This document shows, one piece after another, positions 35,601 through 59,799 of a DNA stretch of 64,000 nucleotides. Position numbers and translations under genes: made by a program. Source of the DNA: an uncultured Actinomycetota bacterium (GTDB taxonomy: Bacteria > Actinomycetota > Actinomycetes > Mycobacteriales > Mycobacteriaceae); the NCBI GenBank assembly GCA_963822655.1, contig CAWGIJ010000008.1:9337-73336 (forward strand), given 5' to 3'. The number at the start of each line of letters is the position of its first letter. Positions within the stretch are counted from its first letter, which is position 1. Below the pieces are notes generated by a model. It ran no database searches. It was given only the letters and a program-made list of their open reading frames with translations, and was not told where the DNA came from.

Positions 35601-35960
35601 CCGTGCTGCGTCCTGCCCGATCAGCGCTACGTGGTGGTCGACTACAAGACGAACTGGCTCGGCGACAACGCCGCCGATTACGGCGCCCGCGCGGATGGCC
35701 GAGGCGATGCTGCACTCCGACTATCCGCTGCAGGCGCTGCTGTACACCGTTGTGCTGCATCGCTTTCTGCGGTGGCGGCTGCCGGGCTACGACCCGGCCG
35801 CCATCTCGGCGGGGTGCTGTATCTGTTCGTGCGCGGCATGTGCGGCGCGGAGACCCCGGTGATCGACGGGCAGCCGGCGGCGTGTTCGGCTGGCAGCCGC
35901 CCGCCGGACTGGTGCGTCGCGCTGTCGGATCTTCTCGACGAGGGAAGGCTGGCGGCGTGA
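32656..35960 (+). pseudogene. recB: Exodeoxyribonuclease V beta subunit, heavily frameshifted
   Basis: The ATG overlaps the recC stop (TGATG). LEASAGTGKTFALAGLVTRYV (Walker A), VMVDEFQDTDPVQWQVI, VILIGDP, SKGLQYPIVYLPFAF, LTYVAMTRAQSQVVAWW and the nuclease core GYLTGSIDAVL...VVVDYKTNWLG are each in different ORF-track fragments. Confidence 0.9.
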
Positions 35961-35971
35961 CTCGTTGACTG

Positions 35972-37707
35972 ATGTCGAGCTGGCCGGTCGGCGCGTCCGG
36001 CCTGTTGCAGGCGTTCAACGAGGCCGCGGTGCTCGATGTTGCGGACGTGCGCGTCGCGCAACGGCTCTGCTCCTCGGCAAGGAGTCCGACGAACGCGTGG
36101 CGCTGGCGGTCGCGCTGGTGGTGCGCGGGCTGCGCGGCGGGTCGGTCTGCATGGAGCTCGCGACCATCGCAGCCGACATCGGCGTCGACGACCTGCCGTG
36201 GCCGGCGTCTGACGGCTGGCTGGCGGCGGTGCGGGCCAGCCCGCTGCTCGGCCAGGTGCTACGTCTTTGCGACGAGCGATCTGCTCTACCTGGACCGGTA
36301 TTGGCGCGAGGAGCAGCAGGTCTGCGACGACCTGCTGGCGTTGCAGGTGTCCAAGCCGGTCGGCGATGTGCGCCGACATCGAGCGACTTTTCCCGGCCGG
36401 CTTCGAAGAGCAGCGCGAGGCCGCGGAAATTGCTCTGGCGCAACGGTCACGGTACTGACCGGCGGCCCGGGAACCGGCAAGACCACGACGGTCGCGCGGC
36501 TGCTGGCGCTGCTCGCCGGGCAGGCTGGTGCGTCCCGGCTGCGGATCGCGCTGGCGGCGCCGACCGGCAAGGCGGCCGCGCGGCTGCAGGAGGCCGTGCA
36601 GCTCGAGATGGCGACAAGCTGGACGCCGCCGATCAGGCGCGGCTCGGCGAGCTGCAGGCGACGACGCTGCATCGGCTGCTGGGCAGCAGGCCGGACACCT
36701 CGTCGCGGTTCCGGCACCACCGCGGCAACCGGTTGCCGCACGACGTCATCGTCGTCGACGAGACGTCGATGGTGTCGCTGACCATGATGGCCCGGCTGCT
36801 GGAGGCGGTGCGCCCGAGTCGCGCCTGATCCTGGTCGGCGATCCCGACCAGCTGGCGTCGGTGGAAGCCGGCGCGGTGCTGGCCGACCTGGTCGACGGCA
36901 TCTCGGCGCGCAGCGACATGCGGGTGGCGGCGCTGAAGACGTCGCACCGGTTCGGCGAGTCGATCGGCGCGCTGGCGTCGGCGATCCGCGACGGTGACGC
37001 CGACCGCGCGCTGGAGGTGCTGCGCGCCGGCGGTGAGCACATCGAGTGGATCGAAACCGACGACCCGTCTGCTGCGTTGCGTAAAGTGCTTGCTGCCGCA
37101 TGCGCTTGCGGCTGCGTGAGGCGGCGCATGCTCGGCGACGCGACGACGTGCGCTGGCGACGCTCGATGAGCACCGGCTGCTGTGTGCGCACCGACGCGGG
37201 CCGTACGGGGTGCAGCACTGGAATCGGCAGGTCGAGCGATGGCTCTCCGAGTCGACGGGCGAGCCGACCTGGTCGGAGTGGTATCCCGGGCGGCCGCTGC
37301 TGGTGACCGCCAACGACTACGGGCTCGGTCTGTACAACGGCGACACCGGCGTGGTCGATCAACCGGCCAGACGGGCTGCGCGCCGTCATCGCAGCCGCCG
37401 GCGGACCGCGGGAGTTCGCGACCAGCCGGCTGTCCGACGTCGAGACGATGCACGCGATGACGATCCACAAGAGCCAGGGCTCGCAGGCCGCCGAGGTGAC
37501 CGTGCTGATGCCGCCGAGGATTCGCGGCTGCTGACGCGGGAGTTGTTCTATACCGCGGTGACTCGAGCCAAGGCCAAGGTGCGCGTCGTGGGTACGGCGG
37601 ATTCCGTAGGGGCCGCAATCGAGCGGCAGGCGATTCGGGCATCGGGTCTAACAGAGAGGCTGCGTTCTTCTGCGGCAGGTCCTGGGTGGTCGGAGGCGGA
37701 TCGATGA
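35972..37707 (+). pseudogene. recD: Exodeoxyribonuclease V alpha subunit, heavily frameshifted
   Basis: [101 protein letters not shown] and LFYTAVTRAKAKV are split over many frame changes. Confidence 0.9.
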
Positions 37708-37909
37708 ATACGTCTGGATGCCGCCGTCAAAATCCGTTGGTCATGGGTTCGCGGAGGCCTTTAGCGACGTCCCCCGGCGGGAAACCTCCGGGCACTTGGC
37801 AGACCTTTGCGGCGGTCACCACAGTTGGCACAGGGCTTCACCCGCCTTGTAGGGGCCCCAACCCTGCTGGGCCCAATAAACTTGTTTGCCCGGGACGTCA
37901 GCGGAATTC

Positions 37910-38330
37910 TCAGTGGTCGTGCTCGAACAGGCTTCCGTCTGGCGCGTAGGTCTCGCACGACACCGAGGCGTGGAAACCTAGCGGTACGACGAGGTAATCA
38001 CCTCCGTTTGGAGGCACATTGACAAAGCTGCCCGGACAGCTCTCAGTACTGGTTGAGTACCAATCCGGAATTCAGTGCAGGCGCCGTCGCTGTTGGAAAC
38101 TTCGAACCTGCCACCTCCGACCGTATCGTGATCTCCAGCTGCATCCGGGGGGCAGCGCGATAGATTGCACCGTGGCCATCAGCATGAAATAGGCGCTCAA
38201 TCTGCGGATCAGACTTGCGCTGTGGCGAGTCACTGATTTGCGCGTAAACCCCACAATCAGCATCTTTGTAGCGACCAACTTGTCGTACGCTGGCCCGCGT
38301 CGCGACCCCGAACTCAGCTAAAGGCAGTAC
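37910..38330 (-). pseudogene. Possible decayed ORF of unknown function
   Basis: ...GVATRASVRQVGRYKDADCGVYAQISDSPQRKSDPQIERLFHADGHGAIYRAAPRMQLEITIRSEVAGSKFPTATAPALNSGLVLN, then a 1-nt frame change into STESCPGSFVNVPPNGGDYLVVPLGFHASVSCETYAPDGSLFEHDH, stop 37910-37912. No clear start and no family. Weak call. Confidence 0.25.
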
Positions 38331-38347
38331 TCCTGCTCCACGGAAGG

Positions 38348-38644
38348 TTAAGGGGATTTGACGCTTGGCCGTCCACCGATACCCTGCCGTTTGTACGACT
38401 CCCACTGGGCCACGCCGCCATGCCCGGAACAAGTTCCGCTGTGGTGACGGCTGTGCGAGTAGCTCCCGTCGCGGCACTGAGCTGACGAACCGCCTGAGCT
38501 AGTATCGGGCTTTTCAACGCAGCCCGGCTGCTCCTCGTCATATCCAGGCGGGCACTGCATAGCTGTCGGGCGCACGACAGGCCCGTCTGATGTCGGCGAA
38601 ACCGCCCAGATCAAAATCGGAAGCCCCGACCAACGCTGCACCAA
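38348..38644 (-). CDS. DUF3761-like Cys-rich small protein
   Basis: CRDGSYSHSRHHSGTCSGHGGVAQW matches the DUF3761 signature. The N-terminus and signal peptide are unclear, so it may itself be damaged. Confidence 0.5.
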   Translation of the reverse strand: MVQRWSGLPILIWAVSPTSDGPVVRPTAMQCPPGYDEEQPGCVEKPDTSSGGSSAQCRDGSYSHSRHHSGTCSGHGGVAQWESYKRQGIGGRPSVKSP

Positions 38645-38935
38645 ACACGCTTTCCTCCCCAGGTGATGTTCGCGATGGAGAAGCTGAGCGTGGCTTCAAG
38701 ACGCGCAGCAGCGTTCCCAAACTTTGGCTCGGTTTTCATCCGAACGGATGACCAAATCTGCCTTAGCGAGCCGCCCAGATTCAGCGCCAACGACCGACAG
38801 CGGTTTCTGGACGCCGAGACCTGGCAGACCAAGGCTGATGGCTGGTGGGTGTCAATGAAGCGAACCGCTTTGGTCGCAATATCTAGCGCTCGCGAGACAT
38901 CGAGCCGCCCACCCCAACCTTCAGTTGGCTGCAAT

Positions 38936-39385
38936 TCACAGTGGGGGCGGTTCAGGCGCCCGGGGAGCCGGTGCAGGGTCAGGCATGTGCCCTGGCTCGT
39001 CGGGGAGCACGGTGTCCTGGCGCACGACGTAAGATTCGTTGTCCGAGTCCTGCTCGGGGATGTTGCCGCCTGGGTAGTAGGTGCAGTTGGAGTAGTACTC
39101 ACCGCCGGAGCAGCTACTACTCGGATATGCGTAATGAGCCGGAACCCCGATGACACGCGTCCGCATCCAGGAGCCGTCCGGTCGGATTGGCCCGTCGCAG
39201 ATAAGTCGCTGCTTGCTGCCCAGGAAACCCCACGGCGCCAGGTTGCAGTTGACAGGAACAGGGTTGGGGTTGGCCATTGAGGGGGGCGCGAAGTCGGCCG
39301 TTAGCGTAACGAGCGCCGCTGCACATAGCAGGACTGTAAGAGCCGAATCCTCGGTCGGGTCATGATTTTTCCTTGGCTGTGGCAT
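38936..39385 (-). CDS. Secreted Cys-rich protein with a C-D-G-P motif (resembles mycobacterial CDGP-domain proteins)
   Basis: MPQPRKNHDPTEDSALTVLLCAAALVTLTADFAPPSMA (signal-like), then ...NCNLAPWGFLGSKQRLICDGPIRPDGSWMRTRVIG...SSSCSGGEYYSNCTYYPGG. Pro-rich tail. Confidence 0.5.
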   Translation of the reverse strand: MPQPRKNHDPTEDSALTVLLCAAALVTLTADFAPPSMANPNPVPVNCNLAPWGFLGSKQRLICDGPIRPDGSWMRTRVIGVPAHYAYPSSSCSGGEYYSNCTYYPGGNIPEQDSDNESYVVRQDTVLPDEPGHMPDPAPAPRAPEPPPL

Positions 39386-40059
39386 GAATAGAGCAGCTAA
39401 AAAATAAGGCGGCGGGGGGCCTTTCATCTATCAATCGTGAATCTAGAAAACAGAGGGGCTAATGGGGCGCCCGTGGCAACGATGGCCGCAACAATGTCGA
39501 CGTGCCACTCCCCAGGCCCACGCATTTCGACCCGGTCAGTACGGGCAGGTCACAGCTGCCGCGGGCAAACCGTTATGGCCGGGTTTAACGGCACTTGGTA
39601 AAGCTGGGCGGCACAGACCATTGAGTCACTAGGTGTTGGTGCGGCTACGCGCCGGGGTGGCTTCCAGAACACGACGCGTCAAACTGCCGCTTTAGAAAAT
39701 TACGAAAAAGACCGGGGACCAAGATAATTGGAGGAGCCGGTCGAGGCTCCGCTAGTCAAATCTTTCGCGATTCTGGCTGAAACTCCGATTATTCAGCGAC
39801 CCAGCGGCCGCCACGGCGTTGGGCGGCCTGGGTTGCCCCCGCCACGCCGTACGCGTCGCGTCGAACGGGTAGACGATTACACGGTGTCGCGGCTGTATTG
39901 GCGCGGCACCCGTGGGACCCGCGGCTTGACAGTTACCACTGAACGCAAGAACCCGTCCGGTCAACTTGGGAGGACGGTTTCATACTTGAGCGAACTCGCA
40001 AATGAGCAAATTGGCTGGAAACGCACGAGCCATTAGCGTAAATCTTTTATCGTCAGGGG

Positions 40060-41038
40060 ATGTGGAGCAAGGCTCGGCGAGTTGCCGCAGTGGCTTTGAC
40101 TTTTATTACACTAGCGCCAGCGAGTAGTGCCTGCGGTGGCTTTATTAACTCCCTACCTACCAGGACGGTCACGGCAACTGCAGCACCCACCACGACACCC
40201 ACCCCGTCAACGCAGGCCGCGATCCGCGCGTGGCACAACGCAGCCATTGCCGCTGCAAGAGATACACGAAGCAGCGGACAAGATCGTCAAGGCAGCGGAG
40301 GCTGTCGACCTCGTCGCCATGGGCATTGCCTGTCAGGAACAACACGACGCCGTCGATCAGGTTCAGGAGCACATGCCAAGCCCCGACCCAGATTTAACCG
40401 CCCAACTCCAGAAAGCTCTCAGCGACTATTCCACGGCCGCAGCGATCTGCACGACGGCGGTTGAAAACCGGAATCTCGATGACTTTGGACAAGCGACCAC
40501 CTTTGTCCGAGAGGCGAACACACACATGGACCAGGCCGCAAACATCTTAGCTAGCGATCTCGGTGAACCATCGAATTCGGCAGCGCCGCCTACTTTTTCA
40601 TCTCCGAGTGTTAGCGCGACAGCGGTAGATCCCGAGCAGGCCAGCATGCAACAGCTGCGGCAGCTCGCGAGTTCAGACCGTTCTTTCGTCCAAGCCAGTC
40701 TTGCCGATTGGTGGATCCCTCAACTCAGCTCGAAGCGTTCCTCGGAACCCTGGACTGTCGACCCAGAAAACGCTGTAATTTATGACCCTGGAAGGATCTT
40801 GCAGGAACATCAGCAGCTCCGTCAGAAATACCCCGGGATAGTACGTCTGCTGTGGTCGGGCGACTGGTCCACATTCTCCGCGTCGCCAAACTTCTGGGTC
40901 ACCGTTGTAGCGGAAACCTTTCCCGAGTCGGCCGGCGCCCTCGAGTGGTGCAGAAGCCAAGGTCTCGACTCCGATCATTGCGCCGCAAAGATCGTCAGCA
41001 CGACGCACCCTGTCGAGGGAAGTACCGACTACAACTGA
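40060..41038 (+). pseudogene. Lipoprotein with conserved actinobacterial C-terminal domain, frameshift near 40255
   Basis: AGGGGA precedes ATG 40060. MWSKARRVAAVALTFITLAPASSACGG is lipobox-like. ...AAIRAWHNAAIAA, then a frame change into QEIHEAADKIVKAAEAVDLVAMGIACQ... The C-terminus is DWWIPQLSSKR...LLWSGDWSTFSASPNFWVTVVAETF...ALEWCRSQGLDSDHCAAKIVSTTHPVEGST. Confidence 0.6.
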
Positions 41039-41494
41039 GAAGGAGAGAAGACCGAGGGTTTTGGTGCGTGGAGCTTTCGCGGTCACGCAGCCGTGGCCTT
41101 GGGCGCGGCGTGGCCGGCACCACGGGGTTGACGCGAATATGCAGTGCCCCAAGGATTTCCACAAAGCCGCGTCCTGCGATTTGCATCCCCTGGCCGGCGT
41201 GCAGGCCACTCAGCGCTTGGTACCGCTGCTGGGTGTGCAGATGGTTTCAGGTTCAGTGAGGACCCAACCGGTGGTCACAGCTGCCACGCGCGGGGTGGCG
41301 CCAAAATGGTCGACCAGGCTCCCCCGTCAGCAACACTGATCGCTTCGCGGTGGGAGTGACGCGATCATCAGAAGACATCTGTCCAAGCTAAGCCCTGCTC
41401 ATGACACGCTTGGCGCAGCCAGAGCTCGATAGCGACACGCAAGCCGCGTCCGGGTCGGCCGCAACGCCTGTAGCGCACCCACCGAGTTGACACA

Positions 41495-44400
41495 ATGTCC
41501 GGTATGGAACGTGGGATCTACGAGATTCTTCTAACGGATGCATTACGAACTGAAGTGAGCTCCCTCGAAGAACATCTGACGAAAGACACCCGACCGCTGC
41601 ATACCGCCGAGGCTGCAGACCGAATCGCATTGCACCTAAGCCGATATCTTCAGCAGGCTCTGGAGTCGGTCAGCGATAGTGAGCGCGTTCGAGTTGGCAT
41701 CGAGCTGGCACGCGATTTGATCGCCCGAATCGCCGAGGTCTCCAAATCGGACCACTCCGAATCGCCGTCCGAGCCTGGCGAGGTCCTACACGCTATCGTC
41801 GAACGGCTGCCGGACGGGAGGCCAGGGCGGATCGCCGAACCCCTGATACCTCTGCTCGATACCACCCTGCTCACCAACGCACCCGGCGATCCCAGTCTGC
41901 TTCGCCAGCTAGATACAGAGATCGAGTCGGCGGACGCAATCGACGTTGTCATGGCGTTCATTCGACGCAGCGGCATAAACCCGCTTCTGTCATCGCTTCG
42001 CCGCCACTGTGAAAGCGGCAAGCCACTTCGAGTCCTCACAACCATCTATACGGGCTCCACAGAGAGACAAGCCCTCGAACAGCTGAAAGGCATTGGCGCC
42101 CAAATCCGCGTCTCATACGATGTCGGCACGACCCGTCTTCACGCCAAGTCGTGGGTCTTCCATCGACGCTCCGGTTTCTCGACGGCCTACGTAGGCTCGT
42201 CAAATCTCACCCACACCGCCCAGCTCACAGGCCTTGAGTGGAATATTCGTGCTTCTTCGGCGCGCAATCACGACATCCTCGCAAAGTTTGAGGCAGTCTT
42301 TGAAAGTTATTGGCAGAGCGCCGACTTCGTCGAGTTCGACTCCGCGCAATTTGATGCCGAAAGTCGAGCGGGCCGGACGCACTGACCACGGCCCTACCGT
42401 GATACTCAGCCCCATCGAGCTTCGTCTAGAGCCGTTCCAAGAGCGTCTCCTGGAGCAGATCTCACTTTCACGCGTTCGCGGTCACCACAAAAACTTGCTC
42501 GTCGCCGCCACTGGCACCGGCAAGACCGTGATGGCTGCCGTCGACTATGCCCGCCTCCGCGACCAACTGTCGCGATCCCGGCTGCTTTTCGTTGCTCATC
42601 GTAACGAGATACTCGACCAAAGCCTCGCCACATTCCGATATGCATTGCGCAGCGCTTCCTTTGGCGAGAAATGGGTCAGCGGCTCGCGGCCCGAACGATT
42701 TCGACCACGTGTTCGCGTCCATCCAAAGCCTCAACGCCACGAAGCCTGCGAGCACCTTGCGCCTGATCACTTCGACGTCGTCATTGTTGACGAGTTCCAC
42801 CACGCGGCGGCACCCTCCTACCGCAAGCTGCTCGACCACGTGCAACCGCGTGAACTACTCGGTCTAACCGCTACGCCGGAACGGAGCGACGATCTTTCGA
42901 TCCTGCATTGGTTCGACGATCGGATCGCCGCGGAGCTCAGATTGTGGGACGCAATCGATCAGCAGCGACTTTGCCCGTTCATGTACTTCGGAATTCACGA
43001 CGGTCTCGACTTGACCGATATACCGTGGCGCCGCGGTCGGGGCTACGACATCGAGGCCCTGAGCAATCTGTACACGAGCACCGATGCGTGGGCTCGTACC
43101 GTGCTGCAAGAAGTGATCCGACTTGCCGACGACACCAACTCGATGCGGGCCCTTGGTTTCTGCGTCGGCATCGAGCACGCCCAGTTCATGGCAGCACACT
43201 TCAATAGGCACGGTATTTCTGCCGTAGCTATTTGGGGTAACAGCTCGCGAGACGACCGCGTCGCAGCGCTGCGTGACCTTGCGGACGGGAAGGTGAAAGT
43301 CGTGTTCTCAGTGGACCTCTTCAACGAGGGAGTCGACGTTCCAAACGTCGACACATTGCTTATGCTGCGGCCGACTGAAAGCCCGACGCTGTTTCTGCAA
43401 CAGCTCGGGCGCGGACTGCGCCGATCCAAGGAAAAGAATTTCTGCACAGTGTTGGATTTTGTCGGCACCCACCGCCGGGAATTTCGCTTCGACCGCAGAT
43501 ACCGGGCGCTCCTCGGCGGCGACTCGTAGAGATCTCGAAAGGGCCGTGCAGCAGGGCTTTCCATTTTTGCCCGCAGGGTGCTACATGAATCTGGATCGGA
43601 AGGCGACCGAAATCGTGTTACGTAGCATTCGTGACGCGATCCCGTCACGATGGCCGGCCCGGGTAGCAGAGCTGCGCGCCGTCTACAACGAGTATCCCGA
43701 TGTCTCCCTTCCCAAGTACTTAGAGGAATCCGGACTGGATTTGCCCGACGTGTACGACGGGACCCGCGGATGGTCGGATTTGTGCGAAGCAGCGGGCATG
43801 CCAGTCGCGCCGGCTGGACCGAACGAGACCCCGCTGCGCAGAGCAGTTGGCCGTTTGCTTCACATTGATGATGATGAACGCATTGATGTGTATCGCCGGC
43901 TTTTCGAGGTGCCAACTCCTGTGGATGTGTCGACGCTGTCCGAGCGCGATCGGCGTCTGGTGCGAATGCTGGTAGCCAGTCTGGGAGACCAAGTTCTGAC
44001 CAAAGAACAATCGCTCCAGGCAGCCGTCGACCTGGTGTGGTCACATCCACAAGTTCGTGCTGAATTTGCCCAACTACTCGTCGAACTCGACGAGCAGAGT
44101 CGACCACCTGCATGGGAATCTCGAAAGATCATCCCGATGTGCCACTTCAGGTCCATGCCCGCTACTCGCGCATCGAAATCCTCGCAGCCTTCGGTATCGG
44201 AGACGGGGCGAAGGTAGTCGAGTGGCGTGAGGGGGTATACGACGCCAAAAGCGCGGGCGCCGACATCCTGGCGTTCACGCTCGACAAGAGCACCGGGAAA
44301 TTCTCACCGACCACCCGCTACCGCGATTACGCCATAAGCCCATCGCTGATCCACTGGGAAAGCCAGTCAGGGTCCGCGCCGATAGCCCAACCGGTCTTCG

Positions 44401-44595
44401 TTACCGCAACCACAGATCACTGGCCGCACAATTATGTTGTTCACGCGTCTACGCGCCGATGATCGGGCCTTCTGGTTTCTCGGTCCAGCTACGTATCGCG
44501 GTCACACGGGTGAAAAGCCAATGGGTATTACGTGGGAACTGCACACCCCATTACCAGGCGATCTATATCAGTCTTTCGCCGCCGCAATTGCGTAA
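41495..44595 (+). pseudogene. PLD-family nuclease / SF2 (DExH, ResIII-type) helicase / DUF3427 fusion protein, at least 7 frame changes
   Basis: PLD HKD motif TRLHAKSWVFHRRSGFSTAYVGSSNLT. Stop at 42383-42385, then helicase motifs LLVAATGTGKT, VVIVDEFHH, LGLTATPER and QQLGRGLRR, with an excursion into another frame (NDFDHVFASIQSLNATKPA). Further shifts occur near 43525, 44110, 44375 and 44420. The DUF3427-like end is HARYSRIEILAAFG...LIHWESQS / VRADSPTGLRYRNH / GRTIMLFTRLRADDRAFWFLGPATYRGHTGEKPMGITWELHTPLPGDLYQSFAAAIA, stop 44593-44595. Confidence 0.8.
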
Positions 44596-44604
44596 CAGCG
44601 CCCC

Positions 44605-47248
44605 TCACCCGCCCACCACCCCACCCTCCCCAGCCGCAACCAGCAGCATGAACGTCCGCTCCCCTTTGCCGGCTTTGGTCGTCAACTCCAGCGGGTAATA
44701 CCCATCCCGCACCGACTCCGCCACCTTGACCGTCACCGTCGACGTCCCAGCCCCGTCGTCACCGAACTTCCCCGACACCGACTCCACGGAAATCCCTGCC
44801 TCATAAGACTTTCCGGAGATCTCATAGTCGCCAGGCCCGTCGACCATCCGCTGCACGTTGACCGTCACCTCGGTGTCCGTCCCGGCGTCCATCGCGACAA
44901 CCGACGGCGACACGTTGACCGTCACCGGCACACTGCCCGCACCGAACGACGGCGGCGCCGAATCAGCAGCGGTCCCCCACGACTTGTTGGGTTTCGATGA
45001 CAGCGAGAACGCCAGCTCGCCGCCACCCGCAAGGAGCGACTCCGGTAGATACGTCTTGTTCGGTCGACTTGCCGTCGATGTGCAACCCAGCGATGTACTG
45101 CAACCGGTGATGCCCGGACGCACCCGGCGCGGAAATGTGGATGAATTTGTCTGCGGGCAAAGCGATGTCGACCTTGTCGAACAGCGGCGCGTTCACCGTG
45201 AGAATCGACGTACCCGGGGTACTCGGGTACAGCCCCAAAGAAGACCAGACATACCACGCCGACATCGCCCCCAGGTCGTCGTTGCCCGGCTCGCCATCGG
45301 GCGTGGGACTGAATAGCGTGCCGCGTATCCGGTCGACCAATTCCTGTGTCTTCCAAGGTTGCCCGAGGTAGTTGTACAGCCACGGCACCGAGAAGTTCGG
45401 CTCGTTGCCCGCCCACAGATACGGGTCCACCGGACCGACATTCAGCTGCGTCGTGAACTTGTCGAGCCGCTCGGACACCGCATCGCGGCCACCCAGCGCG
45501 GTCACCAGGCCGGCGATGTTCTGCGGCACGTACCAGACGTACTGCTCGGCGTTGCCCTCGTCGAACCCGACCTGACTGAAGCAGTCCTTCCCGGGCGGCC
45601 GCACCGCCGGACCCTCGGGGAAGAAGCCCAGCGAGTTGCGCGGCTGGATGGAATGCGTCGTCGGGTTGAACAGGTTCTGCCAGTACTGCGCCCGGTCCTG
45701 AAAGTCGCGCGCGGTATCGGAATCGCCGAGATCGGAAGCGAATTGGGAGATCGCGAAGTCGTCGACCGACCACTCCAGCGAGATCGACGCCGCCGGGAAC
45801 GAGCCGTGGCAGGACGACGACGGCAACGGCAGGTAGCCGCGCTTGAGATACGTCTCGACGGCCGGCCGTTCCACGTAGCCGTTGCGGCCGACCCCGCCCT
45901 CGGTCGCGGCGTCGAGCATGAAGTGCAGCGCCCGCTGAGTGTCAAAGTCCTTGGCGCCGAACGCATAGAAGTTGGCGATCAACGGCACCACGCTGTCGCC
46001 GGTCATCTCCGCGGTCGCGGTATTCGCTAGCGCCCACCGCGGGAATGACCCGCTCTGCTCGGCGTCGTTCACCAGGGACTGCGCCATGTCGCTGGCTTCG
46101 TTCGGGAAAATCATCGCCTGCAGCGCCGCCACCCCGCGATAGGTGTCCCAGTCGGAGTAATTGGCGTACTGCGTGTGGTTCGGCGCCACAGTGTGGATTT
46201 CGCGATCGAACCCGATGTAACGCCCGTCCATGTCGTTGAATGTGTTGGGGTTCAACAGCGAATGGTAGAGCGCTGAATAGAAGGTGACGATGTCGTCTTC
46301 GGTATAGCCGGCGACCCTGATCCGCGATAGCGCGTCATTCCACTGCTTCGATGCCGCCGCACGGATGTCCTCGAAGCTCGCAGCCGCCTCGTCGAGATTC
46401 TTCTGTGCACCGTCAATGTCCACGTAGGACAACGCCGTTCGCACCTCCAGATCCGAGCCGGCGTCGAACTCGACGTATCCCCCGCTGGAACCCTGGTAGC
46501 TCGAGTAGGCGCTGCGGCCGTTGGGGAAGACCGAGAAGCCGTCCCAGGTGCCGAATGCCGTGAACGGCTTGCTGAACTTCATCGCGAAGTAGACCGTGTA
46601 GACGTTGTTCTTGCCGCAGAACCCGCCGCTGGTCGCCGAGCCGGTGATCGTGGTGTTGTCGTCGCTGATTTTGATCTTCGCGGCCGAGGTTCCGCCCAAC
46701 GACCCGCCGGGCCGGATGAAGAACCGCGCCGCGCGATCGTTCGGGTAGTGGAAGCGGCCCACGCCGGTGCGGTTGGTGGCCGTGAGTTCGGCCGTCACAC
46801 CCGCCGACGGCAGTCGCACTGTGTAGTAGCCGGGCACGCCCTTCTCGTCTCGGTCGTGCGCGATTTCCTCCGAGGCGTTCCACGGCTCGTCGCCGACCGA
46901 GCTCGTCGTCGGCAGCATCGAGATATCACCGAACGCCGGGCACCCCACCGAGGCGTGGGTCATGCTGAACCCGGTGGATCGCCCGTTGGAGTGGCTGTAG
47001 CCCGCATAGTTGCCGACGGTGTCCGGCGAGTACTGCACCATCCCGAACGGCACCGAGGGCCCGGGGAAGTTGTTGATCTCGCCGACCGTCTTGCCGCCGT
47101 TGCCGGTCCCGATCAGGGTGTCGACGTGCTCGAGCGGATTCGCCACCATCGGGGGCGGCTCATAGGACGTCGGCGTGGCGCTGACCAGCATCGCGCTGAC
47201 CAGCACAGCCGCTGCGATGAACGCCACGGCACCCCGACGTGACCGCAT
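44605..47248 (-). pseudogene. Glycoside hydrolase family 92 (alpha-mannosidase-like), secreted, one frameshift near 45060
   Basis: Signal [25 protein letters not shown] 761-aa body typical of GH92 follows (...[36 protein letters not shown]...[16 protein letters not shown]...). After ...[12 protein letters not shown] the frame changes into [30 protein letters not shown]..., plus an extra beta-rich C-domain ending at 44605. Confidence 0.8.
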
Positions 47249-47347
47249 ATCCGAATTCTGCTCCTCAGCTGGTACTTCGTGTGGGAGGCGGATCGGAGAG
47301 TTGTGGACGGCCGCGCAGCGCCCCCACCGGCATGGAAGTATCCCCGT

Positions 47348-48808
47348 ATGCGATCAACCGTCAAACGGGTCGTCGTGTTCCTGACCGCGCTGATGATGAT
47401 CACGTCGTGCGGCGGCAACGACCAACCTGCTGAGGCGCCGAAAACGACTGGGGTGCCGGGCTTGTCGCAGTCCGAGGCGACCGATATCGGTACCGAGGCC
47501 TACGCCTACGCCTATCCGCTCGTCACGATGGAATACACGCGCCGCGCCTTCACCAATGTCCCTGCGCCCCAGGACACCAAGGCCCCGATGGGCCAATTCG
47601 CCCGCCTGCGCACCTTCCCCAACGCCGCCGACCACGCCGCGACCGCGCCGAATGCCGACACGCTCTACACCCAGGCCTGGTTCGACGTGTCGAAAGAGCC
47701 GTGGGTCGTCACCGTCCCGGACATGGGCGACCGCTACTTCCTGCTGCCGATGATGGACGCGTGGACCAACGTCTTCGCGTCGCCGGGCACCCGCAACGGC
47801 GGCGGCAAGCCGCGGACGTTCGCGATCACCGGCCCCGGCTGGCACGGCACCCTGCCTCCCGATGTGCTGAACTACCAGGCGCCGACGGCATTGGTGTGGC
47901 TGCTGGGCCGCATCTACTGCTCGGGCACCCCGGAGGACTACGACGCGGTGCACAAGCTGCAGGACGGGATCACCGCCTTTCCGCTGTCGTCGTTCGGCAA
48001 GCCTTATCTGCCACCGCCGTTGGCTCCGATCACCGCGTCCATCGACATGGTGACGTCGGCACGCAAACAGGTGAATTCCCTTGGTGCGCCGGAGTATTTC
48101 AAGCTGTTCGCCCGGTTGCTCAAAACCAACCCGCCGAGTGCCGCCGATGCGCCGATGGTCGCCAAGCTAGCCCGGATCGGCATCGTTCCAGGGCAGGACT
48201 TCGACCCGTCGACGTTGCCGGCCGCGGCGAACACCGGACTGGCGATGGCACCAAAACTGGGTCAGGACAACATCAATAGCTGGCGCGAAGACGGCGTGGT
48301 CGCCGGCGATTTCGTCTACAAGAACGGGTGGCACTACACCATCAAGGCCGGCAAATACGGGACCAACTACCGGCAACGGGCATTCGTCACCGAGGTCGGC
48401 GTCGGGGCCAACCTGCCCGAGGACGCCGTCTACCCAACGTCAGACGGCGCCGAGGTGAAGCAGAAGTACAGCGGCGCAACGAAATACACCATGCACTTCG
48501 ACAAGGGGCAGATGCCGCCGGCGAAGGGATTCTGGTCGCTGACGATGTACAACAGCGACTACTTCTTCGTCGACAACCCGCTGAACCGCTACACCCTGAG
48601 CCCGCGGGACAAGTTCATCGAAAACCCCGACGGCTCTGTGGACATCTACATCCAGCCCGATTCCCCCGGCCCGGACAAGGATGCCAATTGGCTGCCCGCG
48701 CCCAAGGATGGCTTCTCGCTGATGATGCGGCTCTACTGGCCCAACGAGAAGAAGCCGTCGATTCTGGACGGGACGTGGCACATCCCGCCGGTCAAGCCCC
48801 AGCCCTAA
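47348..48808 (+). CDS. DUF1254/DUF1214 two-domain lipoprotein
   Basis: [23 protein letters not shown] (lipobox). [15 protein letters not shown]...[43 protein letters not shown] (DUF1254-like). ...[21 protein letters not shown]...ANWLPAP...[10 protein letters not shown] (DUF1214-like). Intact. Confidence 0.8.
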
Positions 48809-48820
48809 CCGATGTGAGCC

Positions 48821-49762
48821 CTAAGCCTTTCGGGCGAAGACGAATTCGTTGCCCGGCACCAGGTCCTTGACTTTGGGGTCGGGGCCGCGGCCGAAGCCTT
48901 CCATCAGTTCGGCGGCCGGTGTCACCGTCACCTCGAAGCCGTGGCGGGCAAACCACTCGCCGACCGGCTCGCGCTCCTCGAAGTACCACAGCTCGTCGGT
49001 CCGCGGGACCTCGCGATCCGGCTGAGTCTTGGCCAGCACGTCGCGCACCCGATCCATCCGTTGGCGCCGCTTGGCCCGTAGCTCCTCGTCGAGGAACGTC
49101 GGCCCCAGCGCTTCGACCGCAACCCGGCTGCCGGGAGCGGAGAGTTCGGTGATGCGTTCGAACAGCAGTTCCTGCGCCGCGTTCGGCAGGTAGGGCATCA
49201 GGCCCTCGGCGGACCACACGCTCGGCTGCGACGGGTCAAAACCGGCCTCCTGCAATGCCTTCGGCCAGTCGTGCCTTAAGTCGACAGCAACCTCGATCCG
49301 GTTGGCGGCGGGCTTGGCGCCGTGCTCGGTGAGCGTCGAGAGCTTGAAATCCAGTACCCGGTCCTGGTCGAGTTCGTAGACCGTCACGCCGTCCGGCCAC
49401 GGCAGCCGCCACGACCGTGAGTCGAGACCCGCCGCCAGAATCACGGCCTGCGTGATGCCGTCGTTGGCGGCGGTGGTGAAGAACGAGTCGAAGAACTTGG
49501 TGCGCGACGCCATGTAGTCGACCATCGCGTCCATCTGCAGCGGCAGGTCGGGCTCGGCCTCGAGCACCTCTTGCGGCAGGTCTGGACCCGAGTGCCAGCT
49601 CCACACGCCGTCGCCGGCGGCGTCGAGGAACACCCGCGCGAACGGGTCTTGGATCAGCGGGTTGTCGCGCTCGGTTTCCGCCGCGCGGGCCGACGCCACG
49701 CCCAGCGCCGTCGCCCCAACGCTTTCGGTGATTTCCCAGGAGTCGTTGTCAGTTCTCGCCAT
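48821..49762 (-). CDS. Class I SAM-dependent (O-)methyltransferase, paralog of 5660-6601
   Basis: ATG 49762: [27 protein letters not shown]...[34 protein letters not shown]. 313 aa, roughly two-thirds identical by eye to the other copy. Confidence 0.9.
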
Positions 49763-49843
49763 GCCTCGAAAGTACGTGAGGTGGCTTGGCGTCGGCTGTG
49801 CGTCCGGTTGCCGGAGGGGTGAACGCCGAGTGATATCGCATGT

Positions 49844-49962
49844 GGTCACGTTTTCGAATTCGGTCACATGGTCGCTCTCTGATACCCACGTGACACCTGT
49901 GACTCGGCACAGCGTCTGTCCAGTTACAAAGGCCCGGCAATCCGGCTATCGGCTGAGGTCAC
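49844..49962. promoter_or_regulatory. Cluster of five GTCAC/GTGAC pentamers in a divergent intergenic region
   Basis: GGTCAC at 49844-49849, 49862-49867 and 49957-49962. GTGAC at 49890-49894 and 49899-49903. A random 120-bp stretch would be expected to hold about 0.2 copies on both strands, assuming equal base use. Confidence 0.3.
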
Positions 49963-50016
49963 CGGTTATGTTGTCGGCGGAACTCGGACACACGCAGGCC
50001 GGAGGTTGCTTGGAGC

Positions 50017-52392
50017 ATGCTCATTGATGGTCGCGAAGTCAGGGTTTCGGGCAGCCTGCTGCAACCCCTGACTCGGCGCACCAACGACATGCTGCGAGTC
50101 GCCTTGTCCGGGGCGCTGCTGGCGGTCGTGATCACCAGCTCGCTGATCACCCGCACGCGGTGGGACGGGCTGGAGATGTCCATCTCGCGCATCGTCGGGG
50201 TGCTGACACCCACGCAGTCCGACGTGGTCTACATGGTCTACGGCCTCGCGGTCCTGGCGTTGCCGTTCATGATCCTGTTCGGCCTGGTCATCGCCCGGCA
50301 GTGGCGACTGCTGATCCCCTACGCGGCGGCCGCGTTGCTGTCGATTCTCTCGCTGTCGATCACCGGCACCGGCATCGCCGCCCCGCAGTGGCACTTCGAC
50401 TTCAACGACCGCCTGCGCACCGTGCTGTCGCAGTTCCTCGACGACCCGCGCTGGATCGCCATGCTCGCGGCGGTGCTCACCGTGTCCGGTCCGTGGCTGC
50501 CGGCGCGGTGGCGGCACTGGTGGTGGGGCCTGCTGCTGGCCTTCATCCCGATCCACCTGGTGGTCAGCGCGATCGTGCCGGCCCGCTCGCTGCTGGGTAT
50601 TGCGGTCGGCTGGTTCGTCGGCGCGCTGGTGATCCTGGTCAGCGGCACGCCCGCACTCGAGGTACCGCTCGACGACGCGGTCCGCATGATGGCCAAACGC
50701 GGCTTCGCGGTGACGGGCCTGCGGGTGGTCCGGCCGGCCGGGTCGGGTCCGCTGATCCTGGCGGCGGTCACCGAGGAGTCTGACGAGAACGCCGTCGTCG
50801 AGATGTACGGGCCGCACCAACGCAGCGGCGGTGCGCTGCGGCAGGCCTGGCGAATAGCGCGACTGCGCGACAGCGAGACCGCTCCGCTGCAGGCCTCGAT
50901 GCGTCGTGCCGTCGAGCATCGGGCCCTGATGGCGATCGCGATCGGCGACCTGGGCATCGCGAACACGGCGACGATCGCCGTCGGCGTCCTCGACCGTGGC
51001 TGGACGATCTACGCGCACAAGCGAATTCGCGGTGAGCCGTTGAAGGCCTGCTACAAGTCGACACCGGTGGCCGAGGTATGGGAGTCGCTGCACAAGCTGC
51101 AGGAGCACCAGATCTCGCACGGCGACCTGCGTGACAAGGAAATCACCGTCAGCAACGGCGCCGTGTTCTTCGGTGGATTCGTCAGCGCCGAATACGGCGC
51201 CACCGACAACCAACTGCAGTCCGACATCGCGCAGCTCCTGCTCACCACGTCGGCGCTCTACGGCGCGGACGAGGCCGTCGCCGCGGCCATCGAGGTGCTC
51301 GGCCGCGACACCGTGCTGACCGCATCGCGCAGGCTCACCAAAGCCGCTGTGCCGAAGCATGTTCGCGACTCCGTTACCGACGCCAAAGGCGTCATGGCCC
51401 GCAGTCGCGCGGCGGTCATGCGCCAAACCGGCACGGAGAAGATCCAGACCGAATCGATCACCCGATTCAGCCGCAGCCAGCTGATCCAGCTGATCCTGCT
51501 CGGCGCGCTGGTGTACGTCGCCTATCCGTTCATCAGCACCGTGCCGACGTTCTTCAATGCGCTGGCGAGGGCGAACTGGTGGTGGGCGCTGCTGGGCCTG
51601 GCCATCTCGGCGTCGACGTATGTCGGCGCCGCTGCGGCGCTGTGGGCCAGCGCTGACAAGACGGTGAACTTCTGGCGGCTCTCGATTGCACAGGTAGCCA
51701 ACACTTTTGCCGCGACCACCACCCCGGCCGGCGTCGGCGGGCTCGCGTTGAGTACCCGGATTCTGCAGAAGAGTGGGCTGAGCACGACGCGGGCCACGAC
51801 CGCGGTCGCGCTGCAGCAGTCGATGCAGGTGATCATGCACATCCTGCTGCTGATCTTCTTCAGTACCGCCGCAGGCGCGGGGACCGATCTTGCGCACTTC
51901 GTGCCGAAGTCGACGATGCTCTACCTGATTGGCGGTGTGGCGCTGGGGATTATCGGCATCGCCTTGCTGGTGCCCAACCTGCGACGCTGGCTGTCGACCT
52001 CGGTGACGCCCAAGCTCAAGGAGGTCCTCGGCGACATCGTCGAGGTCGCGCGCGAGCCCCGGCGGATGGCGCTGATCGTTTTGGGTTGCACCGGAACGAC
52101 TCTCGGCGCGGCGTTGGCGCTGTGGGTCAGCGTGGAGGCTTTCGGCGGCAACGCGACGTTCGTCAGCGTCACCGTGGTGACGATGGTCGGCGGGACGTTG
52201 GCGTCTGCCGCGCCCACCCCGGGCGGCGTCGGCGCCGTTGAAGCGGCGCTCATCGGTGGGCTCGCCGCGTTCGGCCTGCCGGCCGCCGTCAGCGTGCCGT
52301 CGGTGCTGCTGTATCGGGTGCTGACCTGCTGGATACCGGTGTTCGTCGGGTGGCCGGTGATGCAGTGGCTGACCCGCAACGACATGGTCTAG
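50017..52392 (+). CDS. Large membrane protein: N-terminal TM block, kinase-like central domain, C-terminal MprF/UPF0104 flippase-like TM domain
   Basis: Intact 791 aa. The centre has ...LHKLQEHQISHGDLRDKEITVSNGAVFFGGFVSAEYGATD (HGD catalytic-loop-like). The C-terminus has FAATTTPAGVGGLALSTRIL and GGTLASAAPTPGGVGAVEAALIGGL, typical of lysylphosphatidylglycerol-synthase TM-region proteins. Confidence 0.8.
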   Translation: MLIDGREVRVSGSLLQPLTRRTNDMLRVALSGALLAVVITSSLITRTRWDGLEMSISRIVGVLTPTQSDVVYMVYGLAVLALPFMILFGLVIARQWRLLIPYAAAALLSILSLSITGTGIAAPQWHFDFNDRLRTVLSQFLDDPRWIAMLAAVLTVSGPWLPARWRHWWWGLLLAFIPIHLVVSAIVPARSLLGIAVGWFVGALVILVSGTPALEVPLDDAVRMMAKRGFAVTGLRVVRPAGSGPLILAAVTEESDENAVVEMYGPHQRSGGALRQAWRIARLRDSETAPLQASMRRAVEHRALMAIAIGDLGIANTATIAVGVLDRGWTIYAHKRIRGEPLKACYKSTPVAEVWESLHKLQEHQISHGDLRDKEITVSNGAVFFGGFVSAEYGATDNQLQSDIAQLLLTTSALYGADEAVAAAIEVLGRDTVLTASRRLTKAAVPKHVRDSVTDAKGVMARSRAAVMRQTGTEKIQTESITRFSRSQLIQLILLGALVYVAYPFISTVPTFFNALARANWWWALLGLAISASTYVGAAAALWASADKTVNFWRLSIAQVANTFAATTTPAGVGGLALSTRILQKSGLSTTRATTAVALQQSMQVIMHILLLIFFSTAAGAGTDLAHFVPKSTMLYLIGGVALGIIGIALLVPNLRRWLSTSVTPKLKEVLGDIVEVAREPRRMALIVLGCTGTTLGAALALWVSVEAFGGNATFVSVTVVTMVGGTLASAAPTPGGVGAVEAALIGGLAAFGLPAAVSVPSVLLYRVLTCWIPVFVGWPVMQWLTRNDMV

Positions 52393-52871: not shown

Positions 52872-53155
52872 GGTACCCCCCACCACGCACGGCTATGCTG
52901 TTGTAGCAAACAAATGGTATCCGCTTCCGAAGGTGAACGGGCCAGAACGGCCGATCCCGATCTCCCCGGTGTCGTTGCTCACACGATGAGGGAATATCCG
53001 CCGCGTGAGATAGGCTGATCCCAACGTTGGCGTTTCGACTAGCTGACAACGTCGTGGACTGCTCCGACAATCCAATTCTTGGCTTTCTTACGGCGATCGA
53101 TTTTGCCCACCGGCAATCTCGCCACACCCTGATGCCTGAAAGGCACCACACCACA

Positions 53156-54454: not shown

Positions 54455-54503
54455 AGTTGTTTCGATTGTTTCAATTCGATGTGGGCGCTGGTAGCCTGGA
54501 CTC

Positions 54504-55626: not shown

Positions 55627-55630
55627 AGCC

Positions 55631-56107: not shown

Positions 56108-56116
56108 CTGCCGCCG

Positions 56117-59766: not shown

Positions 59767-59799
59767 CGGGTCCCATCTTGGTCGCTGTGCCAGAGTCGA

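What the first reader, a model, noticed from the sequence alone, without database searches (positions are those of the whole stretch)
41495..44595. Decayed single-polypeptide PLD nuclease / SF2 helicase / DUF3427 gene: a defence-like nuclease-helicase not assigned to a named system
When the frames are stitched together, the locus encodes a protein of about 1030 aa. It has an N-terminal HKD phospholipase-D-family nuclease module (HAKSWVF...GSSNLT) and a central ResIII/DExH helicase (ATGTGKT, DEFHH, TATPER, QQLGRGLRR). The C-terminal domain is DUF3427-like (IHWESQS...LFTRLR...FWFLGPATY...EKPMGITWELHTPLP). Nuclease-plus-helicase fusions are a recurrent architecture of anti-phage systems, but I cannot place this exact combination in a named system. 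The gene has at least 7 frame changes, so it is dead like recBCD next door. It lies at the end of the AT-richer island, convergent with GH92. The co-located loss of two nuclease-helicase machines is notable.
Basis: partly seen in the sequence, partly recalled or inferred. Interest (0 to 1): 0.65.

Follow-up and report, generated by a model that had tools for sequence, protein, structure and literature searches.

The report
Dead SauUSI-type methyl-DNA restriction gene
This is the frameshift-riddled remnant of a well-known kind of bacterial defence enzyme, a SauUSI-family type IV restriction endonuclease that cuts foreign DNA carrying methylated cytosine, so it is an ordinary pseudogene of a family that is already named and characterised.

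Summary
Window 41495-44595 (+) is one gene of about 1029 codons. At least eight window-specific 1-2 bp indels break it. The domain order is PLD nuclease, SF2 helicase-like ATPase, helical coupler, DUF3427.

The claim that it belongs to no named system does not hold. The read-through protein matches PADLOC's 'Type IV methyl-directed restriction enzyme' model end to end (E=5e-251). Its best solved relative by sequence, profile and fold is 7CLG, the crystal structure of SauUSI from S. aureus. SauUSI has this same three-part architecture, and its DUF3427 is an SRA-like reader of 5mC/5hmC. The catalytic HxK...GSSN motif, the helicase motifs and the residues aligned to SauUSI Asp-858 and Trp-868 are all still readable.

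The closest relatives, two soil Mycobacterium MAGs, carry intact 1031-1032 aa copies under purifying selection. The window copy shows almost no substitution decay, so it died recently.

The recBCD operon upstream is also a pseudogene array, much more decayed and so probably older. Its adjacency to this gene is inherited synteny, not a linked loss.

Homologues have no conserved partner gene and no recurrent methyltransferase nearby. That fits a solitary type IV enzyme.

Verdict: an already known system, as a dead copy. Low interest.

The parts
41495..44595 (+). Whole pseudogene: SauUSI-family type IV restriction endonuclease. Read-through product is 1029 aa. Stop codon at 44593-44595.
   Evidence: PADLOC mREase_IV PDLC03659 E=5e-251; PDB 7clg_A E=7e-77.
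41495..42385 (+). The only long intact piece, a 296-aa ORF. It holds the N-terminal extension and the complete PLD nuclease domain, and ends 9 out-of-frame codons after the first frameshift.
   Evidence: AF2 model pLDDT 86.9. Foldseek top hits are the SauUSI nuclease domain (rmsd 2.6-2.8 A over about 170 columns), then Zucchini, Nuc, NucT, BfiI, PLD3.
41495..41872 (+). N-terminal extension of about 125 aa. SauUSI lacks it and no Pfam family matches. It is conserved in the long-form subfamily.
   Evidence: Pfam finds none. The PADLOC and 7CLG alignments begin at residues 114-127. Full-length homologues in other phyla align from residue 4-7.
41924..42313 (+). PLD-family (HKD) nuclease domain. 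HxK is at 42140-42160 (HAKSWVF) and GSSN at 42194-42211.
   Evidence: Pfam PLDc_2. H216, K218, G234-S-S-N237, E248, W249 and N250 are invariant in 46 sequences, including the window copy.
42420..43424 (+). SF2 helicase-like ATPase (ResIII + Helicase_C). Motif I ATGTGKT is at 42507-42527, motif II DEFHH at 42789-42803, motif III TATPER at 42867-42884, motif VI QQLGRGLRR at 43398-43424.
   Evidence: Pfam. Alignment to SauUSI residues 225-565. Coordinates.
43485..44040 (+). Alpha-helical coupler region between the ATPase and the target-recognition domain (approximate limits).
   Evidence: The 45-homologue profile aligns collinearly to SauUSI 226-920, including the coupler at 618-805. The AF2 model of homologue P0010 is all-helical here.
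44041..44577 (+). DUF3427, the SRA-like target-recognition domain. TTRYRDYAIS is at 44310-44339 and contains the Asp aligned to SauUSI Asp-858. IHWESQS is at 44349-44369 and contains the Trp aligned to SauUSI Trp-868.
   Evidence: Pfam DUF3427 E=3e-15. Alignment to the SauUSI TRD. Roles of the SauUSI residues are from PMC7913695. D597 and W607 are invariant in 45 homologues.
42366..42367 (+). Frameshift 1: +1 insertion, frame 2 -> 0.
42698..42698 (+). Frameshift 2: +1 insertion (A), frame 0 -> 1.
42741..42748 (+). Frameshift 3: +2 in total, either one 2-nt insertion or two 1-nt insertions. Frame 1 -> 0. Together with frameshift 2 it garbles about 15 codons between helicase motifs Ia and II.
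43521..43521 (+). Frameshift 4: +1 insertion (G), frame 0 -> 1.
44094..44094 (+). Frameshift 5: +1 insertion, frame 1 -> 2.
44123..44128 (+). Frameshift 6: +1 insertion (exact base ambiguous), frame 2 -> 0.
44368..44369 (+). Frameshift 7: 1-nt deletion, frame 0 -> 2, directly after the conserved HWESQS.
44417..44420 (+). Frameshift 8: 1-nt deletion, frame 2 -> 1.

Best explanation
The locus is a recently inactivated gene for a solitary, single-polypeptide, ATP-dependent type IV (modification-dependent) restriction endonuclease of the SauUSI family.

Mechanism inferred from SauUSI, not shown here. In the intact ancestor the protein would dimerise through its N-terminal PLD domains, which together form one HxK active site. 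The C-terminal DUF3427/SRA-like domain would flip a modified cytosine (5mC or 5hmC) out of incoming DNA. That recognition would switch on the SF2 motor, which translocates or loops DNA and brings the nuclease to cut and then shred the modified foreign DNA. No methyltransferase partner is needed because the host genome is unmodified at the target.

Shown here. In this genome the gene carries at least eight 1-2 bp indels, the first after codon 287. No full-length enzyme can be made. At most a 296-aa fragment holding only the N-terminal extension and the PLD domain could be translated. Loss was recent, because substitution-level decay is essentially absent. It occurred in a chromosomal stretch where recBCD had already decayed.

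Inferred. The low GC3 marks the gene as an old horizontal acquisition, later inherited vertically within this Mycobacterium clade.
For: Architecture and lesions.

Family assignment:
- PADLOC mREase_IV PDLC03659 E=5e-251, residues 114-1028 against profile positions 15-942 of 945. The second mREase_IV model gives E=5e-72.
- Single-sequence search of PDB: 7clg_A E=7e-77.
- A profile of 45 homologues against PDB: 7clg_A E=1e-87, collinear with SauUSI 226-920, which covers ATPase, coupler and TRD.
- The AF2 model of homologue P0010 (pLDDT 82.8) has Foldseek top hits 7clg_A/B, 'ATP-dependent restriction endonuclease SauUSI', E=5e-28 over 705 columns.
- The AF2 model of the window's own PLD ORF has the SauUSI nuclease domain as top hit, rmsd 2.6-2.8 A.

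Residues: HxK/GSSN and all helicase motifs are present. The equivalents of SauUSI Asp-858 (base-specific contact) and Trp-868 (stacking) are invariant in the family and retained in the window.

Literature for architecture and mechanism: PMC3141236, PMC7913695, PMC6765204, bioRxiv 10.1101/2025.10.16.682607.

Solitary gene: the +/-3 neighbours in 25 homologue loci show no conserved partner and no recurrent DNA methyltransferase. They do include scattered Wadjet, Dpd, DISARM-like, Lamassu, HNH, toxin-antitoxin and integrase genes.

Recent loss:
- The closest relatives L001 and L002 have intact 1031 and 1032 aa ORFs.
- dN/dS for window against L001 is 0.106, against 0.117 for the intact pair L001-L002.
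- Only 1 of 147 family-invariant residues is changed, V->I. Intact members change 0-7 in a leave-one-out test.

Foreign composition: GC3 is 66%, against 86% in neighbouring genes.
Against: No experiment exists for any actinobacterial or long-form member. Modification dependence and target are extrapolated from SauUSI, which shares only about 22-30% identity overall and much less in the TRD. The single-sequence TRD match scored only 7 bits.

The long form has an extra N-terminal region of about 125 aa of unknown role.

Pseudogene status rests on indels alone. There are no stops and no substitution decay, and no reads were available to verify the assembly.

The catalytic acidic residue of SauUSI's H(x)K(x)4E is His in this clade (HAKSWVFH). 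This holds in intact homologues too, so it is a clade feature and not decay.
Confidence: 0.88

Rival explanations
1. The frameshifts are sequencing or assembly errors, and the gene is really intact and functional in this organism.
For: All lesions are 1-2 bp indels. There is no in-frame stop, 146 of 147 invariant residues are intact and dN/dS is 0.106. Insertions outnumber deletions, as also in recBCD (55 against 18), and the inserted bases are mostly not in homopolymers. That is atypical for natural bacterial indel spectra. No read data could be found to check.
Against: The indel density is about 2.7 per kb here and about 8.7 per kb in recBCD. It is zero in the adjacent intact 2.3-kb GH92 and in the intact genes from 47 to 64 kb. 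Uniform error at that rate would leave GH92 intact with a probability of about 0.002 (own estimate, exp(-6.2)). recBCD also has in-frame stops and low protein identity, so this region really is decaying.
Confidence: 0.07
2. It is, or was, a new defence nuclease-helicase that belongs to no named system.
For: Public records annotate full-length homologues only as 'DEAD/DEAH box helicase' or 'DUF3427 domain-containing protein'. NCBIfam has no equivalog above its cut-off. The long form has an extra N-terminal region.
Against: There is full-length, collinear homology to SauUSI by sequence, profile and fold, and to PADLOC's type IV model. The literature explicitly defines PLD + helicase + DUF3427 as SauUSI-like and widespread.
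Confidence: 0.03
3. The family in Actinobacteria works in DNA repair or recombination as a RadD-like or RecBCD-associated helicase-nuclease. Its position next to recBCD would then be functional.
For: The helicase core resembles RadD (PDB 6jde E=1e-18; NCBIfam RadD E=7e-30 but far below its cut-off). recBCD is the immediate upstream neighbour here and in L002.
Against: The RadD similarity is confined to the SF2 core. Of the 56 loci aligned to the window by DNA, only L002 matched the recBCD stretch; a protein-level search for recBCD in the other loci was not run. L001 has no recBCD beside its copy. The gene has foreign GC3. DUF3427 is a modified-base reader.
Confidence: 0.03
4. The surviving 296-aa ORF (41495-42385), which holds the N-terminal extension and the PLD domain, is still expressed and keeps a function as a stand-alone PLD nuclease.
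For: The ORF is intact with its original ATG. All PLD invariants are present. The model is confident and matches dimeric PLD nucleases such as Nuc, NucT and Zucchini.
Against: No expression data exist. No relative encodes such a stand-alone form, because the homologues are full length. The piece is simply everything upstream of the first frameshift. Without the TRD and the motor, an unregulated nuclease would more likely be silent or deleterious.
Confidence: 0.05

Closest known systems
SauUSI (Staphylococcus aureus; PDB 7CLG), type IV ATP-dependent modification-dependent restriction endonuclease
   Same: It is a single polypeptide with the same domain order: PLD nuclease (HxK...GSxN), SF2 helicase-like ATPase with all motifs, helical coupler, C-terminal DUF3427/SRA-like TRD. 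The alignment is collinear over SauUSI residues 33-920. It is the top fold match for both halves. The equivalents of Asp-858 and Trp-868 are conserved. There is no cognate methyltransferase nearby.
   Different: Identity is only about 22-30%. This copy has an extra N-terminal region of about 125 aa. The acidic residue of H(x)K(x)4E is His. The TRD is strongly diverged, so the S5mCNGS specificity cannot be assumed. It is of actinobacterial, not staphylococcal, origin. Here it is a pseudogene.
PADLOC mREase_IV model PDLC03659 ('Type IV methyl-directed restriction enzyme')
   Same: The match runs end to end at 833 bits (residues 114-1028 against profile positions 15-942 of 945). This subfamily is therefore already catalogued as type IV in a standard defence-finder database.
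   Different: The model does not cover the N-terminal extension. The members behind the model are, as far as the held literature shows, predicted rather than assayed.
CglI / NgoAVII ATP-dependent restriction systems
   Same: They also combine a PLD nuclease with an SF2 helicase-like ATPase (PMC7913695). There is a weak Pfam RE_NgoFVII hit on the PLD domain.
   Different: In those systems the nuclease (with a B3 TRD) and the helicase are separate subunits (R2H2), and they accompany a methyltransferase. Here everything is in one chain, the TRD is a DUF3427, and there is no methyltransferase.
DUF3427-PD-(D/E)XK fusions (McaZI, YenY4I groups; PMC6765204)
   Same: They share the DUF3427 modified-cytosine sensing module and a defence role (restriction of the 5hmC phage T4gt).
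   Different: They have a different nuclease (PD-(D/E)XK) and no ATPase motor, and they often sit next to methyltransferases.

Membership tests
SauUSI-family type IV restriction endonuclease | N-terminal PLD-family nuclease domain with the HxK catalytic motif and GSxN | tested here: met
   Pfam PLDc_2. H216-A-K218 and G234-S-S-N237 are invariant across 46 sequences, including the window. The fold matches the SauUSI nuclease domain at rmsd 2.6-2.8 A. The acidic residue after HxK(x)4 is His in this clade.
SauUSI-family type IV restriction endonuclease | Central SF2 helicase-like ATPase in the same polypeptide | tested here: met
   ResIII E=2e-35 and Helicase_C E=3e-14. Motifs I, II, III and VI are present. 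Aligned to SauUSI 225-565.
SauUSI-family type IV restriction endonuclease | Helical coupler plus C-terminal DUF3427 / SRA-like target-recognition domain with a flipped-base pocket | tested here: met
   Pfam DUF3427 E=3e-15. The profile aligns through SauUSI residue 920. The equivalents of Asp-858 and Trp-868 are invariant. The whole-length fold match to 7CLG covers 705 columns. The SRA fold of the TRD alone was not searched separately.
SauUSI-family type IV restriction endonuclease | No cognate methyltransferase (solitary gene) | tested here: met
   Among 148 neighbour ORFs from 25 homologue loci, no DNA methyltransferase family recurs in the families listed (only the top 25 families are shown). 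No C5-methyltransferase motif IV occurs in any frame of the window. The neighbours in the window are GH92 and unassigned ORFs.
SauUSI-family type IV restriction endonuclease | ATP-dependent cleavage of 5mC/5hmC-modified DNA but not of unmodified DNA | not testable with these tools
   This needs biochemistry or restriction assays on an intact orthologue. No paper on a mycobacterial member is in the held library.
SauUSI-family type IV restriction endonuclease | Intact reading frame, that is, a functional member | tested here: not met
   There are eight frameshifting indels. The locus is a pseudogene of the family, not a working member.
CglI/NgoAVII-type PLD + helicase restriction system | Separate R (PLD + B3 TRD) and H (helicase) subunits with an accompanying methyltransferase | tested here: not met
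   Intact homologues have a single ORF of 1026-1032 aa. The TRD is a DUF3427, not a B3 domain. No methyltransferase is adjacent.
RadD / type I HsdR helicases | Family-level score and domain composition | tested here: not met
   NCBIfam RadD scores 104 bits against a cut-off of 720. EcoAI HsdR scores 108 bits against a cut-off of 550. The similarity is limited to the SF2 core.

The most novel reading that the evidence does not exclude
The 'long-form' subfamily to which this relic belongs has an uncharacterised N-terminal region of about 125 aa, His in place of the PLD acidic residue, and a TRD only remotely like SauUSI's. It is found from Actinobacteria to Bacteroidota and Gammaproteobacteria. 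It may read a different DNA modification or sequence context than S5mCNGS. Its decay here, by an unusually insertion-biased and indel-rich process shared with recBCD, may reflect a peculiar mutational regime in this reduced Mycobacterium rather than ordinary drift.
Probability: 0.2. Interest if true: 0.35.

Novelty: already known. Interest (0 to 1): 0.12.

Why it matters
It matters little beyond annotation. The locus should be labelled 'type IV restriction endonuclease, SauUSI family, pseudogene' rather than 'helicase' or 'novel defence gene'.

For this organism, it adds one more lost barrier to foreign DNA, alongside the lost RecBCD. That is typical of a lineage under relaxed selection and genome decay.

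One practical point follows. Intact orthologues in environmental and clinical mycobacteria (M. rhodesiae, M. elephantis, M. iranicum, M. asiaticum) are plausible barriers to transformation with Dcm-methylated E. coli plasmid DNA. This has not been tested.

Tried and rejected
1. Organism identification failed. The exact GH92 protein is not on record. No sequencing run holds more than 10% of the locus k-mers. The best genome-collection relatives are only 80-83% identical at DNA level. The organism is called only 'a Mycobacterium', from its relatives and from the gal/recBCD gene order.

2. A GC3 frame plot meant to count pseudogenes across the window was too noisy to use.

3. An apparent clustering of the indels at 'CGA' trinucleotides was dropped as coincidence. 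About 3-4 of the 7 insertions lie at CGA, against 11% background coverage. In the 45 single-base insertions in recBCD the figure was 5 of 45, against 14% background.

4. tblastx of the low-GC stretch 37.7-41.5 kb against all fetched loci found nothing meaningful. Pfam on its ORFs found nothing. The window has no tRNA.

5. A search for a C5-methyltransferase in the window, which could explain selection against a 5mC-dependent nuclease, found no motif IV match. The rest of the genome could not be examined.

6. Membership of PbeA, HsdR, RadD and BrxH was considered because of PADLOC and NCBIfam hits. It was rejected because the matches are partial, restricted to the core, or below cut-off.
Full report
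OBSERVATION

Five successive ORF pieces on the + strand, in frames 2, 0, 1, 0 and 1, span 41495-44595. Pfam assigns PLDc_2 to the first piece and ResIII + Helicase_C to the second. It assigns nothing to the third, and two halves of DUF3427 to the last two.

A frameshift-aware protein-to-DNA alignment was made with two intact homologues (L011, Mycolicibacterium rhodesiae; L007). It runs from ATG 41495 to 44592, with the stop at 44593-44595. It needs eight frame changes and crosses no in-frame stop. The read-through product is 1029 aa.

A nucleotide alignment with five intact orthologues shows that each frame change is an indel private to the window:
- +1 near 42367
- +1 at 42698
- +2 near 42744 (possibly two +1 events)
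- +1 at 43521
- +1 at 44094
- +1 near 44124
- -1 at 44368
- -1 at 44417

The intact pair L001 and L002 differ by one 3-nt indel only. All quoted motifs were located.

GH92 at 44963-47248 (-) is intact and convergent with the gene. The gene is 58.8% GC and the 3.7 kb upstream of it is 60.1% GC, against 66.0% for the window.

WHAT IT IS

The read-through protein matches PADLOC's mREase_IV model PDLC03659, 'Type IV methyl-directed restriction enzyme'. The E-value is 5e-251, covering residues 114-1028 against profile positions 15-942 of 945. A second mREase_IV model, 953 positions long, gives E=5e-72.

Against all PDB sequences the best hit is 7clg_A (953 aa), at E=7e-77, aligned over PLD and ATPase. 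The next hits, RadD and an HsdR fragment, match only the SF2 core at about 1e-18.

A profile of 45 homologues improves the 7clg_A match to E=1e-87. The alignment is one collinear stretch over 7CLG residues 226-920, which covers ATPase, coupler and target-recognition domain.

An AlphaFold2 model of the close homologue P0010 (686 aa, pLDDT 82.8) has 7clg_A and 7clg_B as its top Foldseek hits. Their title is 'Crystal structure of the ATP-dependent restriction endonuclease SauUSI', with E=5e-28 over 705 columns.

A model of the window's own intact N-terminal ORF (pLDDT 86.9) also hits the SauUSI nuclease domain first, at rmsd 2.6-2.8 A. The PLD nucleases Zucchini, Nuc, NucT, BfiI and PLD3 follow.

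The literature defines SauUSI by exactly this architecture: an N-terminal PLD nuclease, a central SF2 ATPase and a C-terminal DUF3427 TRD. It has no companion methylase, cleaves S5mCNGS or 5hmC DNA, and has 'over 150' homologues with the same organisation (PMC3141236; PMC6765204). The crystal structure shows that the DUF3427 TRD is an SRA fold joined to the ATPase by a helical coupler, and that the dimer forms through the PLD domains (PMC7913695).

In the SauUSI model, Asp-858 makes the base-specific contact with the flipped cytosine and Trp-868 stacks on it. In the profile alignment these residues fall on the D of the family's RYRDYAIS and the W of HWESQS. Both are invariant in 45 homologues and are retained in the window.

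The locus is therefore a member of a named, biochemically and structurally characterised family. It is a dead member.

MECHANISM

This part is inferred from SauUSI and was not tested for this clade. The steps are dimerisation through PLD, recognition of a flipped 5mC or 5hmC by the TRD, activation of ATP-driven translocation or looping by the SF2 motor, and cleavage followed by shredding of modified DNA (PMC7913695; bioRxiv 10.1101/2025.10.16.682607).

In this genome none of that can happen. The first frameshift follows codon 287. Two more garble the helicase between motifs Ia and II. One lies at the ATPase/coupler junction, and four cut the TRD.

STATE AND AGE OF THE PSEUDOGENE

The nearest relatives are two soil Mycobacterium MAGs, L001 and L002, at 82% and 80% DNA identity. 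They carry intact ORFs of 1031 and 1032 aa.

dN/dS for the window against L001 is 0.106, indistinguishable from 0.117 for the intact pair L001-L002. The window copy is no more diverged from outgroups than L001 is.

Only 1 of 147 family-invariant residues differs in the read-through protein, a V->I change. Intact members show 0-7 such changes in a leave-one-out test.

So the gene was under purifying selection until recently, and its decay so far consists of indels only.

Uniform sequencing error is unlikely. The 2.3-kb GH92 next door and the genes from 47 to 64 kb are intact. Those genes are DUF1254/DUF1214, an LCM methyltransferase, an LPG-synthase-like protein, a DEAD helicase, a SpoIIE phosphatase, galK and galT. 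No reads were available to verify the assembly, so I keep a 7% rival for artefact.

NEIGHBOURHOOD AND THE recBCD CLAIM

Fragments between 29.3 and 37.7 kb carry RecC, UvrD-helicase (RecB) and RecD domains.

Against L002's RecC, RecB and RecD the region splits into more than 20 HSPs in changing frames, with several in-frame stops and 46-60% identity in many pieces. At DNA level there are 68 indels of length not divisible by three over 7.8 kb. A few of these may belong to L002, whose own recB and recD are each split once.

recBCD is therefore dead, and about three times more indel-dense than the restriction gene. It also has stops, which the restriction gene lacks. I infer an earlier loss.

In L002, recBCD lies 1.4 kb upstream of an intact copy of the restriction gene. 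In L001, GH92 lies directly downstream of an intact copy. The arrangement recBCD - restriction gene - GH92 is therefore inherited. The 'co-located loss' is two separate decays in an old syntenic block, not a linked event.

From my own knowledge of M. tuberculosis gene order, galT-galK and recD-recB-recC (Rv0618-Rv0631c) are neighbours there too. The restriction gene would then sit in a variable stretch between core genes.

Its GC3 is 66%, against 86% in its neighbours. In many homologue loci the gene's GC is also lower than that of its flanks. Both point to horizontal origin.

CONTEXT OF INTACT HOMOLOGUES

Intact copies of 1026-1032 aa occur in M. rhodesiae, M. elephantis, M. iranicum, several Mycobacterium sp. 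and Acidimicrobiia/Microthrixaceae MAGs.

In 25 loci, the three genes on each side share no conserved partner and no recurrent methyltransferase. Scattered among them are JetA/JetC, DpdE, DrmD/SNF2, LmuB, mad3, HNH/DUF222, TacA/PIN and integrases. This is what is expected for a solitary type IV enzyme in variable, partly defence-rich regions.

Full-length relatives that include the N-terminal extension, at 36-41% identity, lie on large replicons filed in the plasmid database, from Arthrobacter, Hymenobacter, Peptoclostridium and Pseudoalteromonas. They are annotated merely as 'DEAD/DEAH box helicase' or 'DUF3427 domain-containing protein'.

DIFFERENCES FROM SauUSI

- There is an extra N-terminal region of about 125 aa with no Pfam match.
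- His replaces Glu after HxK(x)4, in intact homologues too.
- The TRD is very diverged. The single-sequence match scores only 7 bits and needs a profile to align. The recognised context need not be S5mCNGS.
- No paper in the held library deals with a mycobacterial member.

VERDICT

The system is already known. This copy is a recently dead SauUSI-family type IV restriction gene in a decaying stretch of a Mycobacterium chromosome. Interest is low (0.12).

The only mildly unusual aspects are the indel-only, insertion-biased decay it shares with recBCD, and the uncharacterised long-form N-terminal extension.

Noticed in passing
window 29345-37707 (+): The recC-recB-recD operon is a heavily decayed pseudogene array. 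Against L002 it has 68 indels of length not divisible by three over 7.8 kb, several in-frame stops, and 72.5% GC. In the window the indels are strongly insertion-biased (55 insertions against 18 deletions). The inserted bases are mostly C or G, and 35 of 45 single-base insertions are not in a homopolymer. This is the opposite of the usual bacterial deletional bias.
   Followed up: partly
window 41495-44595: The restriction pseudogene has 8-9 indels (7 insertions, 2 deletions) but essentially no substitution decay. Only 1 of 147 invariant residues is changed, there is no stop, and dN/dS is 0.106. The implied indel-to-substitution ratio is high, about 0.25 or more. Together with recBCD this hints at an indel-prone mutational regime or at localised assembly error. 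No reads were available to decide.
   Followed up: partly
window 37752-41494: This low-GC stretch (60%) between recD and the restriction gene has no counterpart in the relatives L001 and L002 (L002 has only 1.4 kb here). Its ORFs have no Pfam or PADLOC-relevant match, including the 303-aa ORF at 40127-41038. There is no tRNA in the window. Its origin is unknown.
   Followed up: partly
window 21900-29300: This stretch has almost no ORF longer than 300 aa and a weak codon-position GC signal, which suggests further decayed genes. An HD-domain ORF at 28575-29177 (-) and a class I methyltransferase at 21113-21895 (-) flank it.
   Followed up: no
window 41495-41872; homologues: The N-terminal extension of about 125 aa (beta-alpha-beta followed by two long helices in the AF2 model) precedes the PLD domain. 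SauUSI and the PADLOC model lack it, and it has no Pfam family. It is conserved in full-length relatives from Actinobacteria, Bacteroidota, Firmicutes and Gammaproteobacteria.
   Followed up: partly
L028 5883-9017 and 9149-12202: One Acidimicrobiaceae MAG carries two SauUSI-like genes in tandem. One is the orthologue (66% identity). The other, directly upstream, is a distant PLD-helicase paralogue (36% identity).
   Followed up: no
L016, L036, L037, L044, L051, L053, L054 (homologue positions): In several long-read soil MAGs the homologue is also split into two or more ORFs. This is either independent pseudogenisation or indel errors in those assemblies. L002's recB and recD are each split once as well.
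   Followed up: no
window 43043-44113 (-): A 356-aa ORF lies antisense to the coupler/TRD part of the pseudogene. It is most likely a spurious high-GC antisense ORF, and it has no independent support.
   Followed up: no
window 47279-61020: Downstream genes are intact: DUF1254/DUF1214 protein, LCM-type O-methyltransferase, LPG-synthase-TM protein, DEAD-box helicase, GAF-SpoIIE phosphatase, galK and galT. The galT ORF (58705-61020, 771 aa) has an N-terminal region of about 450 aa beyond the GalT domains. That may come from an upstream start call or from a fusion.
   Followed up: no
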